Of a stretch of DNA of 54,453 nucleotides, positions 1,164-28,781 are shown piece by piece; the stretch's first letter is position 1, and each line of letters begins with the position of its first letter. The DNA comes from a virus (Duplodnaviria; Caudoviricetes). A program made the position numbers and the translations under genes. The notes under the pieces were generated by a model. The model was not told the origin of the DNA. It made no database searches and saw only the letters and a list, made by a program, of their open reading frames with translations. The stretch is from positions 1-54,453 of the IMG/VR virus record IMGVR_UViG_3300042923_000201. One strand, written 5' to 3'.

Positions 1164-1361
1164 TGTACCATTTACTGGTACAGGTGTTACAATAACTGGT
1201 ACACGGGAAGAATGTAGTAATACCAGTACTTTAACCCACTTTTAAACTCACCGTGTACCATTTACTGGTACTAATATATATATAGTACTGTATTATTGTT
1301 CTTTTAAATACTGTTAATACAGTAATAAAAGATATTACAAAAACAGAAACTGGTACACGGT
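1164..1361. repeat. Iteron-like element, copy 1
   Basis: Palindromic TGTACCA-N5-TGGTAC boxes at 1164-1182 and 1254-1272, ACTGGTACACG repeats and an AT-rich spacer; colinear with 28599-28781. Confidence 0.85.
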
Positions 1362-1373
1362 AAAAAAGGTATA

Positions 1374-1427
1374 AAAAAGTAGTGAGATAATCAACTGGAT
1401 TAACAATTAAAAACCTCACTACTTTTT
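1374..1427. terminator. Probable bidirectional terminator
   Basis: AAAAAGTAGTGAG / CTCACTACTTTTT inverted repeat between convergent transcription units. Confidence 0.55.
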
Positions 1428-1487
1428 ATTTACAGTTATATAATTATTTTACAGTTATATAATTCTATGTAGATGTAACAACAATCA

Positions 1488-1769
1488 CTACATTAATTCA
1501 TCCAAAGAAACTGGTTCTACATAATCCTCTAAACCATTTGTAGTGAATGAAAAGTCAGTTATTATTACTTTGGACTCTCCACCAAATGTTTCCAGTAACC
1601 CATCCATTACTAAATCATGGATTGTTTGGTGTAGTTTTTCTTTATCCTCTAACAATTGTTGTGTTTCTTGAATCTCGCCTTCCTCAATAACCTCTGTATA
1701 TGTGTTTTGTACATTATACCGTATATCCATTGTAATTTTCTTTCTCTTACTGTTTTCTTCTACTCTCAT
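1488..1769 (-). CDS. Hypothetical acidic protein
   Basis: 93-aa ORF with AAGGGG RBS, last gene of the leftward cluster. Confidence 0.65.
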   Translation of the reverse strand: MRVEENSKRKKITMDIRYNVQNTYTEVIEEGEIQETQQLLEDKEKLHQTIHDLVMDGLLETFGGESKVIITDFSFTTNGLEDYVEPVSLDELM

Positions 1770-1805
1770 TCTGTAAATCCCCTTTTACTTTTAATTTATT
1801 TTACT

Positions 1806-1970
1806 TTAACCTAAGTAGGTAAGTACTGCTAACACATTAAATACAAATAATACTAGACCCACAAAAACAGTAGAACCTTTCCCATTTACACCACCTACAA
1901 ACATTGTGACTAATCCAACTAACAAAAGAAATATGTTAATTATATACAAAAAAGCAAACACTGCCACCAT
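1806..1970 (-). CDS. Small two-TM membrane protein (54 aa, not in ORF track)
   Basis: Hand translation MVAVFAFLYIINIFLLLVGLVTMFVGGVNGKGSTVFVGLVLFVFNVLAVLTYLG; AAGGAGG immediately upstream, so the true start may be the GTG three codons in. Confidence 0.65.
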   Translation of the reverse strand: MVAVFAFLYIINIFLLLVGLVTMFVGGVNGKGSTVFVGLVLFVFNVLAVLTYLG

Positions 1971-1989
1971 CCTCCTTCCTCTTTTACTT

Positions 1990-2067
1990 TTAATTTAAAG
2001 ATATAAATAATAATATGCCACATAAAATCCATCCAGTACAAAAACCTATATAAAAATCATTATCCAC
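1990..2067 (-). CDS. Small hydrophobic peptide (25 aa)
   Basis: GTG start 7 nt after GGGGG; MDNDFYIGFCTGWILCGILLFISLN. Confidence 0.5.
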   Translation of the reverse strand: MDNDFYIGFCTGWILCGILLFISLN

Positions 2068-2255
2068 ACTACTACCCCCGTTTTATTTTTTAGGTACAGT
2101 ATCTAGCGTACTCTTCTTTTTATCCATTTAAGGTGTTTTTAAGACGTTTAGATACTGTACCTAAGTATTTATATTAATCAGTTGTTTAAACACCCCTTAA
2201 GAGCCTGTTAGACCCCTTAAAACAGTATTAGAGGTGTTTATTTAAACTGTGATTG

Positions 2256-2519
2256 TTACTGTAGTACCTTTTTAAGTACTATTTTGTTAAATAACTCTCT
2301 AGCTTTCTCTATTTCTGTAAGGTATTCAGTATACCCTACAAACTCAAAATCCCCTACATGGTTTAACTTTGGTTTACAGGTTACGACATACATTTTACTG
2401 TCTTCTCTCTTACCCATCACTGTATATAATAAATATGTCCTACCTTTACCTACTGCCAACACTTTATATTCTCTGTTACCACACAATATGTATTCCCCTG
2501 TCTTAACGCTCTTACTCAT
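2256..2519 (-). CDS. Hypothetical protein
   Basis: 87-aa ORF, GGGAGAGG RBS, in operon. Confidence 0.7.
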   Translation of the reverse strand: MSKSVKTGEYILCGNREYKVLAVGKGRTYLLYTVMGKREDSKMYVVTCKPKLNHVGDFEFVGYTEYLTEIEKARELFNKIVLKKVLQ

Positions 2520-2545
2520 TTACAACATTCCTCTCCCACTTTTAA

Positions 2546-3343
2546 TTACAAATATTTTAATAACTTTTCTTCACCAAAGAACTCAACAGCTTTTTCTGCT
2601 ATTTCCCTAGAACTAAAGTATATTGTCTTAGAACGTCTAATCAAACATGAAGGTTCCACATATAACTTAGGTTCTTCCTCATGATAAGATATAGCAAGTG
2701 AATATCTGTTGCAAGAGGCATCTGTCCAATCAATAGGAGTCTCATTGTTTACAAAAGCAAAGTGTCTCAACTCTCTGTCCAACTTTATTACTTCTACTGC
2801 AAATTCTGCATCTTCCTCAGTTGGGAAACAGTTACCTAATTCAAATTTTGCTCTGTCTACACCAAAGTCACCATTTGTGTCATAAGCCACATCACCCTCC
2901 ATATCTATGTAGTAAAACTCTCCATTAAACTCAGGGGTAAAGAATGTATTTTTATTCAGTCTTTCTTTTTCTTTTTTTAACTCTTCCTCTTCTTCTTTAA
3001 TAACTTTTGATAACCTGTCACTTATTTCTTTAGTCTTAACTTCTAATTCCAGTAATGCTTTTTCTAAATATTCTTTCTCTGTTTTAGTAGTAACCTGTAA
3101 GTCCTTACTAAATCTTGTACTTATGTTATACCCATATCCAGTAGGTACTAGTCCATCACAGGTGTGTAGCTCCACTTCTCTTCCCTTTGTTTTATCCCAT
3201 TCTATACATAAATCACATGACCACGCACTTAACCCCATAAATGTACCCGTTTCTCCAACTTCAAAATCAATGCTACTTTGTTTAAAACCCCTTATTACTA
3301 CAACTCTGTCCCCAACTTCTAATTTTTCCACATCTAACCCCAT
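2546..3343 (-). CDS. Hypothetical protein with N-terminal KOW/SH3-like barrel and coiled coil
   Basis: LEVGDRVVV...FEVGETGT module paralogous to 4181..4963; tight operon spacing. Confidence 0.75.
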   Translation of the reverse strand: MGLDVEKLEVGDRVVVIRGFKQSSIDFEVGETGTFMGLSAWSCDLCIEWDKTKGREVELHTCDGLVPTGYGYNISTRFSKDLQVTTKTEKEYLEKALLELEVKTKEISDRLSKVIKEEEEELKKEKERLNKNTFFTPEFNGEFYYIDMEGDVAYDTNGDFGVDRAKFELGNCFPTEEDAEFAVEVIKLDRELRHFAFVNNETPIDWTDASCNRYSLAISYHEEEPKLYVEPSCLIRRSKTIYFSSREIAEKAVEFFGEEKLLKYL

Positions 3344-3345
3344 TA

Positions 3346-27829: not shown

Positions 27830-28092
27830 ATAATATAATAAACTGTATGTGGTGGAAGTTATTGTTCCACAATATGAACTTATAGGAGCAGTTTTATTTA
27901 AACTACACATACAGTTTATTAAAAGGTGTAATAGTATAACACCTAACTTCCTATTACTAGCAATTATACACAGGTACTCATACTAAGTTTCAGCGGTGTT
28001 GGCATCAACCTGTTAAACTTATATCCAACACTCAGTGGTTTAGAGGTACTCCATTAGGAAATAATACATCTCCCTGTTTCCCTCTCTATCTA

Positions 28093-28122
28093 TAATGTAT
28101 TACTGGAAGTGTCTTTGTGACA
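28093..28122 (-). promoter_or_regulatory. Phage promoter-like motif pointing into the tRNA/tRNA-like array
   Basis: TGTCACAAA-N11-TAATACATTA on minus strand. Confidence 0.75.
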
Positions 28123-28173
28123 TTTATTTTTTAATTCTTTAAATCTTTTTTAGTATGTACGTAAAAGTAATTA

Positions 28174-28260
28174 TTATGCATACCACTGTAAACATCCAAC
28201 TACCATTATAGCTACAAAGGTTACAACTAGAGCTATTAAAACAATATCAATTTTTTTCAC
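28174..28260 (-). CDS. Small single-TM peptide (28 aa)
   Basis: GTG start, AAGGAG RBS, MKKIDIVLIALVVTFVAIMVVGCLQWYA; own SigA-type promoter upstream. Confidence 0.65.
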   Translation of the reverse strand: MKKIDIVLIALVVTFVAIMVVGCLQWYA

Positions 28261-28309
28261 TTAACATCCGCTCCTTACTTTTATTTTTTATTTCTTTTAC
28301 TATAAATAC

Positions 28310-28338
28310 ATTGTACCACAGGTAGAAATTATTGTCAA
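28310..28338 (-). promoter_or_regulatory. SigA-type promoter
   Basis: TTGACA-17-TACAAT with TG extension. Confidence 0.7.
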
Positions 28339-28368
28339 CAGTTATTTTATGTTATTTTTAAAATTAAT

Positions 28369-28398
28369 TGTCACAAACTAACATTTATTAATACATTA
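28369..28398 (+). promoter_or_regulatory. Phage promoter-like motif
   Basis: TGTCACAAA-N11-TAATACATTA. Confidence 0.75.
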
Positions 28399-28404
28399 TA
28401 TGTA

Positions 28405-28531
28405 AGAAGGTAATATTACTTCTATAACAATTTACTAACTTACTTACTTTACACAAAACCTTAATACATACATTTTTAGTTCACATCCTCCTTTAAGTAG
28501 ACACTGGTTTTATTACTGGTGTCTTTTTTTT
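28405..28531 (+). ncRNA. Candidate small RNA carrying an anti-Shine-Dalgarno tract
   Basis: Bounded by promoter motif 28369-28398 and terminator AGACACTGGT/ACTGGTGTCT + T-run (28499-28531); no ORF with RBS; contains CACATCCTCCTTT. 5' end estimated. Confidence 0.5.
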
Positions 28532-28563
28532 AACCCTAATTTTAACTTATTTTTACCCAACAC

Positions 28564-28592
28564 TTGACAATTATGTACACATAATATATAGT
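28564..28592 (+). promoter_or_regulatory. SigA-type promoter reading into the iteron element
   Basis: TTGACA-17-TATAGT. Confidence 0.65.
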
Positions 28593-28598
28593 TATGCC

Positions 28599-28781
28599 TG
28601 TACCAAAAACTGGTACAAGTTGTTACAGAAACTGGTACACGAGGAATGTAGACGTACCAGTGCTTACAGGCTACCGTGTACCAGAAACTGGTACTAATCT
28701 ATATATATACTATACTCAATATCTTTTTAAATACAGTAATACAGTATTAAATACTTACAAAAACAAAAACTGGTACACGGT
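28599..28781. repeat. Iteron-like element, copy 2 (candidate replication origin)
   Basis: TGTACCA-N5-TGGTAC boxes at 28599-28617 and 28677-28695, AAACTGGTAC repeats and AT-rich spacer, immediately upstream of the initiator-like gene. Confidence 0.8.

What the first reader, a model, noticed from the sequence alone, without database searches (positions are those of the whole stretch)
1164..28781. A ~190-bp iteron-like element occurs twice, almost exactly half a genome apart
Seen: 1164-1361 and 28599-28781 share in the same order and orientation TGTACCA-N5-TGGTACA, TGTTACA, ACTGGTACACG, GAATGTAG, TACCAGT, ACCGTGTACCA-N5-TGGTACTAAT, a (TA)n run, TTTTAAATAC, TAATACAGTA and TTACAAAAACA.AAACTGGTACACGGT, while the spacers have diverged. 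The starts are 27,435 bp apart in a 54,453-bp window, so they are nearly antipodal on a circle. Copy 2 abuts the initiator-like gene and copy 1 follows the putative terS. Inference: conserved boxes with diverged spacers mean both copies are maintained as protein-binding sites. Options are twin origins, an origin plus a copy-control or handcuffing site, or coupling of replication to packaging.
Basis: partly seen in the sequence, partly recalled or inferred. Interest (0 to 1): 0.75.

Follow-up and report, generated by a model that had tools for sequence, protein, structure and literature searches.

The report
Twin replication-origin-like modules in a phage
A soil Clostridium-type phage carries two diverged copies of a 190-base origin-like DNA module, one after its small terminase gene and one before its replication initiator gene, an arrangement that recalls the two origins of Bacillus phage SPP1 and recurs in a related Clostridium perfringens phage-plasmid.

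Summary
Window 1164-1361 and 28599-28781 align at 75.5% over 200 nt (E 4e-22), and this is the strongest dispersed repeat in the record. The seven GTACCA/TGGTAC half-sites are 41 of 42 positions identical, against 101 of 157 for the rest of the element.

Each copy has three 19-bp palindromes (TGTACCA-N5-TGGTACA type) at spacings of 21-22 bp and 90 or 78 bp. Each also has a 74-77 bp core of 16-17% GC, bracketed by 11-bp inverted boxes. These two cores are the two least stable duplex stretches of the 54-kb genome.

Copy 2 lies directly upstream of a DnaD-like winged-helix protein, a DnaC-like loader, a DnaB-like helicase and a primase.

A relative, C. perfringens pCPC216_2, has the same palindrome plus AT-rich core at the same two gene-order positions. 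Its initiator shares the DNA-reading helices. Two relatives with divergent helices lack the element.

Best reading: twin initiator-binding, origin-type modules, like SPP1 oriL/oriR. Binding and origin firing are untested. The half-genome spacing mostly follows gene order. A DnaA-box cluster at 54146-54308 is a rival origin.

The parts
1164..1361 (+). Copy 1 of the module, in the convergent gap between the terS-like gene and the last gene of a leftward cluster
   Evidence: Aligns to copy 2 at 75.5% over 200 nt; boundaries
1164..1203 (+). Copy 1 sites A (1164-1182, perfect TGTACCA-N5-TGGTACA) and A' (1185-1203, TGTTACA-N5-TGGTACA, 2 mismatches), 21 bp apart
   Evidence: Palindrome scan; half-site map
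1220..1227 (-). Copy 1 lone inverted box (ATACCAGT)
1250..1272 (+). Copy 1 site B: ACCGTGTACCA-N5-TGGTACT palindrome; its left arm is the inverted repeat of 1351-1361
   Evidence: (D6)
1272..1348 (.). Copy 1 AT-rich core (16.9% GC), candidate DNA unwinding element; holds the (TA)n run and the conserved blocks TTTTAAATAC, TAATACAGTA and TTACAAAAACA
   Evidence: Least stable 75-nt duplex window of the record (rank 1, -74.2 kcal/mol); conserved blocks
1349..1361 (+). Copy 1 right box ACTGGTACACGGT, closing the 11-bp inverted repeat around the core
   Evidence: (1250-1361 self-inverted, 69% over 113 nt)
28599..28781 (+). Copy 2 of the module, 52 bp upstream of the initiator-like gene
28599..28639 (+). 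Copy 2 sites A (28599-28617, perfect) and A' (28621-28639, 2 mismatches), 22 bp apart; site A starts about where transcripts from the 28564-28592 promoter would start
28654..28661 (-). Copy 2 lone inverted box (GTACCAGT)
28673..28695 (+). Copy 2 site B: ACCGTGTACCA-N5-TGGTACT
28695..28768 (.). Copy 2 AT-rich core (16.2% GC), candidate DNA unwinding element
   Evidence: Second least stable 75-nt window of the record (-74.5 kcal/mol)
28769..28781 (+). Copy 2 right box ACTGGTACACGGT
28564..28592 (+). Sigma-70-type promoter-like site (TTGACA-17-TATAGT, 11 of 12) reading into copy 2; it is not part of the repeated unit
   Evidence: no counterpart upstream of copy 1
28833..29525 (+). Initiator-like gene: N-terminal winged helix (HTH_36, DnaD-N-like) plus a C-terminal helical domain; proposed binder of the palindromes
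29617..32606 (+). DnaC/IstB-like helicase loader (29617-30375), DnaB-like helicase (30375-31640) and primase (31653-32606)
692..1153 (+). terS-like HTH gene that ends 10 bp before copy 1
   Evidence: phrog_2538, E 3e-9; PF13022; homologues in three relatives
1374..1427 (.). Two-way terminator-like hairpin between copy 1 and the leftward cluster
   Evidence: RNA folds of -16 and -25 kcal/mol, z -4.4 and -8.2; not called by the consensus scan

Best explanation
The two elements are paralogous origin-type modules read by the phage's own DnaD-like winged-helix initiator (gene 28833-29525).

Each module has three 19-bp palindromes of the TGTACCA-N5-TGGTACA type, plus lone boxes at whole-helical-turn spacings. 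These lie next to a 74-77 bp AT-rich core, which is bracketed by 11-bp inverted boxes.

Proposed mechanism (inferred, not shown):
1. Initiator dimers bind the palindromes and load cooperatively on one face of the helix.
2. The bracketed core, the easiest DNA in the genome to melt, opens.
3. The adjacent loader and DnaB-like helicase are recruited.
4. At copy 2, site A overlaps the start point of a strong promoter, so the initiator would also repress its own operon.

Copy 2 is the primary (early) origin. Copy 1, in the late region just after terS, binds the same protein. It acts as SPP1 oriR is proposed to act: as a second, late origin, or as an initiator-bound fork block that switches circle replication to concatemer synthesis.

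Shown here: the anatomy, the selective conservation, the protein family, the recurrence in a relative, and the match between HTH sequence and palindrome presence. Inferred: binding, melting, and the role of each copy.
For: 1. Selection on both copies. Half-site columns are 41 of 42 identical against 101 of 157 elsewhere in the element; the flanks are at background, 23 of 64 and 19 of 59.

2. Origin anatomy.
- 6 of the 8 palindromes in the window within 2 mismatches of the consensus lie in the two copies.
- Half-site spacings are 11, 21, 23, 35, 11 and 85 bp in copy 1, and 11, 22, 21, 24, 11 and 82 bp in copy 2.
- The two AT-rich cores rank 1 and 2 among all 75-nt windows for low duplex stability.
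- As a control on SPP1, the oriR region ranks 5th and the oriL region is in the least stable 1.3%.

3. Gene context. Copy 2 directly precedes the initiator-like gene, a DnaC-like loader, a DnaB-like helicase and a primase. This is the same gene order as SPP1 genes 38, 39 and 40.

4. Protein.
- HTH_36 scores 35.6 bits against a cut-off of 25.
- Of 36 family members, 34 hit HTH_36, 14 DnaD_N, 8 RepL and 2 Phg_2220_C.
- hhalign against SPP1 G38P gives probability 56.9%, E 1.1e-4, over 136 columns spanning both domains.
- The best Foldseek row is a full-length DnaD model, E 1.3e-3.
- A homodimer of residues 1-110 scores ipSAE 0.69 against a best control of 0.03. That mark was reached by 20 of 30 solved homo-pairs and 1 of 23 single chains. 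The runs agree in 100% of contacts and partner pLDDT is at least 81. DnaD N-domain oligomers are solved, so this may reflect likeness only.

5. Relatives.
- In pCPC216_2 (initiator 33.7% identical), the gap after terS (2658-2714) and the gap before the initiator (27996-28053) share 84.5% over 58 nt, on the same strand.
- Those two sites hold the only 2 such palindromes in that genome.
- Their AT-rich cores rank 3rd and 9th for low stability.
- In FA67, the densest GGTACA cluster of the genome (3 in 200 nt against 0.14 expected) and the 6th least stable window both lie upstream of its initiator homologue.

6. Co-variation. The window and pCPC216_2 initiators share 14 of 24 HTH-helix residues (73 of 230 overall). 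FA67 shares 4 of 24 (64 of 230) and G001 8 of 24 (74 of 230). Both of those lack the palindromes and the twin repeat.

7. Precedent. SPP1 has two origins, each made of repeats plus an AT-rich unwinding element. Both are bound by gp38. oriR lies in a non-coding segment that interrupts the late genes and is proposed to stall the fork (PMC6316719 and PMC3485210, passages read). SPP1 oriR and oriL share 81.6% over 76 nt.
Against: - No binding, melting or replication data exist for this phage.
- The initiator is only a remote relative of G38P: BLASTP finds nothing, and the hhalign probability of 57% is not decisive.
- The fold matches are generic winged helices. DnaD-NTD scores Z 7.4 (rmsd 4.3, 90 aligned) and Z 7.0, and does not stand above unrelated rows.
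- DnaD-type proteins can be recruited by DnaA without reading a sequence of their own (recalled, not from a call). The window has a dense DnaA-box cluster elsewhere: 13 boxes, 6 of them perfect, in 54146-54308. That cluster could be the true origin.
- Two complete relatives, FA67 and G001, have no detectable second copy, and G001 has no element at all.
- A 13-kb C. perfringens plasmid carries the element but has no initiator homologue (tblastn at E up to 1 finds none). The binder could therefore be another protein.
- The HTH co-variation rests on three comparisons, and the shared helix is close to the family consensus.
Confidence: 0.55

Rival explanations
1. Operator or architectural arrays for a different DNA-binding protein: the terS-like HTH protein, another phage regulator, or a host factor. 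They would serve packaging or gene control. The real origin would be the DnaA-box cluster at 54146-54308, with the DnaD-like protein recruited there by host DnaA.
For: - Copy 1 starts 10 bp after the terS-like gene.
- In pCPC216_2 one copy also lies in the gap after terS.
- Copy 2 site A sits at the start point of a promoter that matches the consensus at 11 of 12 positions, as an operator would.
- 13 DnaA boxes lie within 163 bp.
- A 13-kb plasmid has the element without the initiator gene.
Against: - Copy 1 lies between convergent genes, and no promoter-like site reads out of it, so it has nothing to regulate.
- A pac site is expected once per genome (recalled, not from a call).
- A better packaging-signal candidate exists in the terS-side non-coding DNA: TACAGT arrays, and a CCAACGGTGGAA block shared with FA67 and G001.
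- The AT-rich cores being the two least stable segments of the genome has no role in an operator.
- HTH similarity of the initiator tracks presence of the palindrome.
- FA67 has no DnaA-box cluster.
Confidence: 0.22
2. A duplication with one dead copy. Copy 1 arrived by recombination together with the lineage-specific leftward gene cluster (1488-6967), and it persists without any function of its own.
For: None of the 11 cluster ORFs tested (1488-6967) has a homologue in FA67 or G001, and in all relatives terS and terL are separated by variable DNA. FA67 and G001 lack a second copy.
Against: With 64% identity in the rest of the element, neutral decay should have hit the half-sites, yet 41 of 42 positions are kept. 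Order, orientation and phasing are kept too, and the core remains the least stable DNA in the genome. pCPC216_2 keeps a pair at the same two positions although it has different neighbouring genes.
Confidence: 0.1
3. A structured RNA or single-strand DNA element: three hairpins, sitting in the 5' leader of the initiator mRNA and the 3' tail of the terS mRNA. It would act on RNA stability or translation, or as a priming signal.
For: Both copies lie on the transcribed strand: copy 2 after the 28564 promoter, copy 1 before the 1374-1427 hairpin. The single strands fold better than shuffles, z -5.2 and -2.9, with the same three stems in both.
Against: - The stems are the palindromes themselves and show no compensatory change at all. 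Their sequence, not merely their pairing, is conserved.
- No Rfam family reaches its threshold.
- A core of 16-17% GC that ranks lowest for duplex stability is a DNA-level trait.
- The pCPC216_2 and plasmid copies are near-palindromic as a whole and match in both orientations.
Confidence: 0.06

Closest known systems
Bacillus phage SPP1 oriL / oriR with origin-binding protein G38P (gp38), loader G39P and helicase G40P
   Same: - Two dispersed regions share repeats plus an AT-rich unwinding element.
- One is at the initiator gene, followed by loader and DnaB-type helicase genes.
- The other is in non-coding DNA that interrupts the late (virion) genes, downstream of terS and pac.
- Both phages are siphoviruses of Firmicutes.
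- Both carry a RuvC-like resolvase and a PD-(D/E)XK exonuclease, as needed for the proposed switch from theta to sigma replication.
   Different: - SPP1 oriL lies inside gene 38; here copy 2 is upstream of the gene.
- SPP1 boxes are described as direct repeats; here they are 19-bp palindromes.
- The SPP1 pair shares 76 nt; here the whole 190-200 bp module is shared.
- The SPP1 origins are 12-13 kb apart on a 44-kb circle; here they are half a genome apart.
- The initiator is at best a remote homologue.
- Nothing has been tested experimentally here.
Iteron-type theta origins of plasmids (Rep winged-helix initiators, iterons, AT-rich DUE, and an inverted-repeat operator at the rep promoter)
   Same: A winged-helix initiator gene lies next to an array of phased binding sites and an AT-rich unwinding element. 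A palindrome sits at the promoter of the initiator operon, which fits auto-repression by dimers. The general scheme is recalled, and supported only by the search listing of PMC4980987 and PMC4081077.
   Different: There is no run of direct iterons. No DnaA box lies inside either module. There are two full modules per genome. The Pfam RepL match is below its cut-off (17.0 bits against 20.3).
Clostridium perfringens pCPC216_2 (NZ_CP075975.1), an unstudied 55-kb phage-plasmid
   Same: It has the same gene order and a homologous initiator. The same palindrome plus AT-rich core occurs twice, after terS and before the initiator, on the same strand.
   Different: - Its elements are shorter, with one palindrome each, and 46:54 apart on the circle.
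- It also has a separate region upstream of the initiator made of DnaA-box-like words, tandem repeats and very AT-rich DNA.
- It has a ParM gene.
- Its record annotates no function for these sites.

Membership tests
SPP1-type dual origin (oriL/oriR) | Two distant regions that share initiator-binding repeats plus an AT-rich unwinding element | tested here: met
   75.5% over 200 nt; shared boxes; cores rank 1 and 2 for low stability
SPP1-type dual origin (oriL/oriR) | Origin-binding protein gene followed by helicase-loader and DnaB-type helicase genes at one origin | tested here: met
   28833-29525, 29617-30375 and 30375-31640; SPP1 gene order
SPP1-type dual origin (oriL/oriR) | Initiator homologous to G38P | tested here: inconclusive
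   BLASTP finds nothing; hhalign probability 56.9%, E 1.1e-4, 136 columns; 2 of 36 family members hit Phg_2220_C
SPP1-type dual origin (oriL/oriR) | One origin lies inside the initiator coding sequence | tested here: not met
   Copy 2 ends 52 bp upstream of the start codon
SPP1-type dual origin (oriL/oriR) | Second origin in non-coding DNA that interrupts the late gene order | tested here: met
   Copy 1 lies between terS and terL, beside a lineage-specific insert
SPP1-type dual origin (oriL/oriR) | The same protein binds both regions; replication starts at one and the fork stalls at the other | not testable with these tools
   Needs EMSA or footprinting and replication-intermediate mapping
Iteron plasmid-type origin | Several direct repeats (iterons) of one unit | tested here: not met
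   The sites are inverted pairs; half-site orientation is < > > < < > >
Iteron plasmid-type origin | DnaA box within the origin | tested here: not met
   None of the 41 DnaA-box matches (up to 1 mismatch) falls in 1164-1361 or 28599-28781
DnaD-like / HTH_36 winged-helix replication proteins | Pfam HTH_36 above the curated cut-off; DnaD-N-like fold; two-domain build | tested here: met
   35.6 bits against 25; DnaD_N in 14 of 36 members; model pLDDT 88 with a winged helix plus a helical C-domain; DnaD rows, which do not stand out
Phage pac site | Single terS-recognised site at or near terS where packaging cuts start | tested here: inconclusive
   Copy 1 is next to terS, but there are two copies per genome. 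No read ends could be examined, because only contigs were available
Resolvase res / invertase crossover site | A serine recombinase gene in the same genome, with the site beside it | tested here: not met
   No recombinase among 73 window ORFs scanned with PHROGs or 24 scanned with Pfam. The 13-kb plasmid copy does lie after a recombinase gene
Known RNA family (Rfam) | Match at the family's gathering score | tested here: not met
   Only tRNAs at gathering score. In the two copies there are only rows far below threshold, such as mir-71 at 23.9 bits against 50

The most novel reading that the evidence does not exclude
A conserved two-site replication design in a group of Clostridium siphoviruses and phage-plasmids. 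The same initiator reads a full origin module at the start of the replication genes and another beside terS, about half a circle away.

Two versions are possible:
- Both modules fire, so four forks copy the circle in about half the time.
- The second module is a programmed fork trap near the packaging start, which converts circle replication into concatemers.

Small plasmids would then carry one module in order to be amplified or packaged by such phages.
Probability: 0.2. Interest if true: 0.7.

Novelty: new variant of a known kind. Interest (0 to 1): 0.5.

Why it matters
SPP1 is the one well-studied tailed phage with two initiator-bound origins. Its proposed switch from circle replication to concatemer replication depends on the second origin.

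Finding the same layout in Clostridium phages suggests the design is general and not a quirk of SPP1. Here the protein is only remotely related, the sites are palindromic, and the whole module is duplicated, yet the layout recurs in a phage-plasmid relative.

It also gives a compact, sequence-defined system for testing the fork-stall model: three palindromes plus a bracketed unwinding core, present twice.

The copy on a small plasmid hints at a route for plasmid hitch-hiking.

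Tried and rejected
**Searches for closer relatives, mostly blank**
- The search for related loci in viral contigs found nothing with the initiator, terS, PolA, alignment A4 or P0152.
- It found nothing in metagenome contigs or genome contigs.
- Only alignment A5 in viral contigs found one record, G001.

**DNA pattern scans**
- The viral scans gave 115 or more and then 33 single chance hits, plus L083.
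- The metagenome scan was swamped by an unrelated CTGGTACCAG repeat element, with 121 or more loci.
- The genome scan gave 5 chance hits in unrelated taxa.
- blastn of copy 1 and of the pCPC216_2 element against phages found no match.

**Earlier findings.** Both look-ups returned nothing.

**Sequencing runs**
- No RNA holder is listed.
- All three runs are kept only as contigs.
- X1 is probably the source sample. X2 holds two identical 151-nt pieces. X3 holds one 256-nt piece with 9 differences, inside the loader gene.
- None of them covers the element in a relative, and no ends or depth profile could be read.

**Other blanks**
- GC skew follows the direction of transcription and says nothing about origins.
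- The L083 protein that contains look-alike repeats is not related to the initiator. L168 was not followed beyond an ORF list.
- Foldseek found no row at E 0.001 or better.
- The wide VIA search mostly covers residues 10-106, so the C-domain fold is barely tested.
- No paper mentions FA67 in the held library (one search).
- Literature searches for other two-origin phages returned only SPP1 papers. That covers the held library only.

**Coding reading rejected.** The ORFs over the copies lie on opposite strands (1231-1419 minus, 28594-28803 plus), and the alignment has indels that are not multiples of three.

Full report
**What the window is.** The window is one whole IMG/VR virus record of 54,453 bp. 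It is classed linear (no end repeats), and CheckV rates it 99% complete. PHROG and Pfam scans show a siphovirus of an anaerobic, low-GC Firmicute. Its gene layout is:
- a terS-like HTH gene at 692-1153;
- a leftward cluster at 1488-6967 that includes a sigma factor;
- terL at 7135, followed by portal, capsid, tail and lysis genes up to 26769;
- five tRNAs on the minus strand at 26993-27829;
- a replication block: winged-helix protein 28833-29525, DnaC-like loader, DnaB-like helicase, primase, PD-(D/E)XK nuclease, RuvC-like resolvase, NrdD and PolA.

The nearest named phages are Clostridium phages vB_CtyS-FA67 and FA70 (PolA 65% identical, 55.6 and 56.3 kb).

- BLASTN gives 75.5% identity over 200 nt, E 4e-22. 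This is the best dispersed repeat in a self-comparison.
- ACTGGTAC occurs 12 times against 2.7 expected. None of 100 shuffles reaches 12, and 9 of the 12 are in the copies.
- The homology has sharp edges. The flanks are 23 of 64 and 19 of 59 columns identical. Inside the element, half-site columns are 41 of 42 identical and the rest 101 of 157 (p 4e-6).
- The indels are not multiples of three, and the overlapping ORFs lie on opposite strands, so the element is non-coding.

**Anatomy.** Each copy holds three 19-bp palindromes of the TGTACCA-N5-TGGTACA type:
- site A is perfect;
- site A' lies 21-22 bp further on and has 2 mismatches;
- site B has 1 mismatch.

These account for 6 of the 8 such sites in the whole window. 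There is also one lone inverted box. Half-site spacings are whole helical turns: 11, 21, 23, 35, 11 and 85 bp in copy 1, and 11, 22, 21, 24, 11 and 82 bp in copy 2.

After site B comes a 74-77 bp core of 16-17% GC. It contains the (TA)n run and three conserved blocks. It is closed by the box TGGTACACGGT, which is the inverted repeat of the left arm of site B.

By nearest-neighbour energy, these two cores are the least stable and second least stable 75-nt windows of the whole record. As a control, the same measure ranks the SPP1 oriR region 5th and puts the oriL region in the least stable 1.3%.

**Setting.**
- Copy 2 lies between a consensus-like promoter (TTGACA-17-TATAGT, 28564-28592) and the initiator-like gene. 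Transcripts from that promoter would start about at site A. A terminator lies upstream at 28499-28524.
- Copy 1 starts 10 bp after the terS-like stop codon. It is followed by a two-way terminator hairpin and by the end of the leftward cluster. It therefore sits between convergent genes, with no promoter-like site reading out of it.
- A transcription-control role is therefore hard to give to copy 1.

**The neighbouring protein.**
- The 230-residue product has a Pfam HTH_36 domain above its cut-off.
- A full HMMER search finds 228 relatives. Of the 36 I aligned, 34 hit HTH_36, 14 DnaD_N, 8 RepL and 2 Phg_2220_C.
- The AlphaFold model (pLDDT 88) is an N-terminal winged helix with a leading beta hairpin, a disordered linker and a four-helix C-domain.
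- Foldseek's best row is a full-length DnaD model at E 1.3e-3, and no row reaches 0.001.
- The wide structural search gives generic winged helices, with DnaD N-domains at Z 7.4 and 7.0 that do not stand out.
- A profile comparison with SPP1 G38P gives probability 57%, E 1e-4, over both domains. BLASTP gives nothing.
- A homodimer of residues 1-110 passes the complex test: 0.69 against a best control of 0.03; 20 of 30 solved pairs and 1 of 23 single chains reach that mark. Solved DnaD oligomers may explain this result.
- Overall this is a DnaD-like replisome-organiser type protein. A dimer fits 11-bp-spaced palindromic half-sites.

**Relatives.** Most scans for relatives came back blank (see Tried and rejected). 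Four complete genomes could be compared.

1. *FA67* (initiator 31% identical). The gap upstream of its initiator holds the densest GGTACA cluster of that genome, a TA run and its 6th least stable window. No second copy is found by BLAST or by k-mer sharing: the best other window scores 30 against a mean of 8.8, while the same measure scores window copy 1 at 82 against a mean of 10.5.

2. *G001*, a 54.9-kb IMG/VR record (terL 67% identical, initiator 33%). It has no palindrome and no twin repeat.

3. *C. perfringens pCPC216_2*, 55,053 bp. It has the same gene order plus a ParM gene, and its initiator is 33.7% identical.
   - The gap after its terS-like gene (2658-2714) and the gap before its initiator (27996-28053) share 84.5% over 58 nt, on the same strand.
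   - Each has a TGTATCA-N5-TGGTAC palindrome followed by an AT-rich core. These are the only 2 such palindromes in that genome.
   - The cores rank 3rd and 9th for low stability.
   - The four cores align with one another.
   - The best cross-genome hits of these cores are to each other and to the FA67 initiator-upstream gap, at weak E-values of 3e-4 to 8e-3.

4. *A 13-kb C. perfringens plasmid*. It has one copy (75.5% over 102 nt to pCPC216_2). The copy lies after a serine recombinase gene and 2.1 kb from the plasmid's own rep gene. The plasmid has no initiator homologue.

**Protein-site co-variation.** The window and pCPC216_2 proteins share 14 of 24 residues in the two HTH helices, although they are only 73 of 230 identical overall and are the least alike in the C-domain (26 of 90). 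FA67 shares 4 of 24 and G001 8 of 24, and both lack the palindrome. This is the best available link between this protein and these sites. It rests on only three comparisons, and the shared helix is near the family consensus.

**Comparison with what is known.** I read passages of two SPP1 papers (PMC6316719 and PMC3485210). They state that:
- SPP1 has two origins of like build, each with repeats plus an AT-rich unwinding element;
- both origins are bound by gp38;
- oriL lies inside gene 38;
- oriR lies in a non-coding segment that interrupts the late genes;
- gp38 bound at oriR is proposed to stall the fork and trigger the switch to concatemer synthesis, with help from an exonuclease, a recombinase, an SSB and a Holliday-junction resolvase.

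In the SPP1 record, the two origins share 81.6% over 76 nt.

The present pair matches that scheme in layout and gene context. It differs in five ways:
- both copies are intergenic;
- the sites are palindromes;
- the whole 190-200 bp module is duplicated;
- the spacing is half a genome;
- the initiator is only remotely related.

I therefore file it as working like SPP1 oriL/oriR. Membership is not proven, because the homology test is inconclusive and one defining feature (an origin inside the initiator gene) is not met.

**The antipodal spacing.**
- The starts are 27,435 bp apart, and half the record is 27,226.5 bp. The chance is 0.008 for two free points.
- Only 16 gaps of 120 nt or more exist, 5.1 kb in all. 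Placement within the gaps of 190 nt or more gives about 0.09.
- In pCPC216_2 the pair is 25,338 of 55,053 bp apart, which is 46%.
- The spacing follows from one site sitting at terS and the other at the initiator gene, with the virion genes filling half the genome. An extra selective reason, such as even spacing of two firing origins, is possible but has no support yet.

**What counts against the best reading.**
- A cluster of 13 DnaA boxes, 6 of them perfect, at 54146-54308 is a strong rival origin. FA67 has no such cluster.
- Two relatives lack the twin.
- The small plasmid has the element without the initiator gene.
- No binding or replication data exist.

I put 0.55 on initiator-bound origin-type modules. 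The split between two firing origins and an origin plus a late or barrier site is left open. I put 0.22 on another binder with the origin elsewhere, 0.10 on a dead duplicate and 0.06 on an RNA or single-strand element.

Noticed in passing
window 54146-54308: Dense cluster of 13 DnaA boxes (TTATCCACA with up to 1 mismatch; 6 perfect) in 163 bp, in alternating orientation. It lies in the 1.5-kb non-coding stretch that spans the record's ends. It could be a host-DnaA-dependent origin or a DnaA sink.
   Followed up: partly
window 28363, 28775, 32602, 34109, 40807, 43568, 48131 (+) and 28091 (-): Eight copies of a promoter-like word pair, TGTCACAAA-N15-TAATACATTATA, in front of early or middle genes. 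It may be the target of one of the two phage sigma-like proteins (5675-6298; 49564-49884).
   Followed up: no
window 35835, 35965, 40011, 50371 (+); 4993 and 6983 (-): Repeated strong sigma-70-type promoters (TTGACAATTGGTTAAT ... TATATACT). Two of them drive the leftward cluster 1488-6967.
   Followed up: no
window 1-700 and 53680-53810: GGAGGGGT-type words occur at both ends of the record. TACAGT/ACTGTA occurs 10 times in the first 500 nt against 1.1 expected. A block CCAACGGTGGAA (about 318-335) recurs beside terS in FA67 (about 54370-54395) and G001 (about 31593-31615). Together these are a candidate packaging signal, and they suggest the record's two ends adjoin.
   Followed up: partly
window 1488-6967 (-): None of the 11 ORFs tested in the leftward cluster between terS and terL has a homologue in FA67 or G001. 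The cluster holds a sigma factor and three ORFs that share an 81-nt repeat (3238, 4645, 4864). In all relatives terS and terL are split by variable DNA.
   Followed up: partly
window 1424-1462: Tandem pair TTTACAGTTATATAATT x2, just beyond the terminator hairpin next to copy 1.
   Followed up: no
L083:1480-1700 (IMG/VR contig, GC-rich, unrelated phage): About nine tandem GTACCA-N5-TGGTAC palindromes lie inside a 346-aa ORF that is followed at once by a DnaB-like helicase gene. This is an origin-inside-initiator layout using the same palindrome core. The protein is unrelated to the window's initiator.
   Followed up: partly
L284:27353-27750 (pCPC216_2): A second origin-like region upstream of the initiator: DnaA-box-like words, tandem CCCATAAAA...TTTTACCC repeats (27516-27629), and the least stable DNA of that genome (27631). 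A ParM gene follows the initiator, so this relative is a phage-plasmid.
   Followed up: partly
L286:9796-9894 (13-kb C. perfringens plasmid): One copy of the palindrome plus AT-rich core module on a small plasmid that has its own rep gene and tandem repeats (about 10250-10420) but no initiator homologue. It may be hitch-hiking on phages of this group.
   Followed up: partly
L153 onward (metagenome contigs): An abundant, unrelated repeat element built from CTGGTACCAG words, often at contig ends, in a set of metagenomes. It swamped the pattern scan.
   Followed up: no
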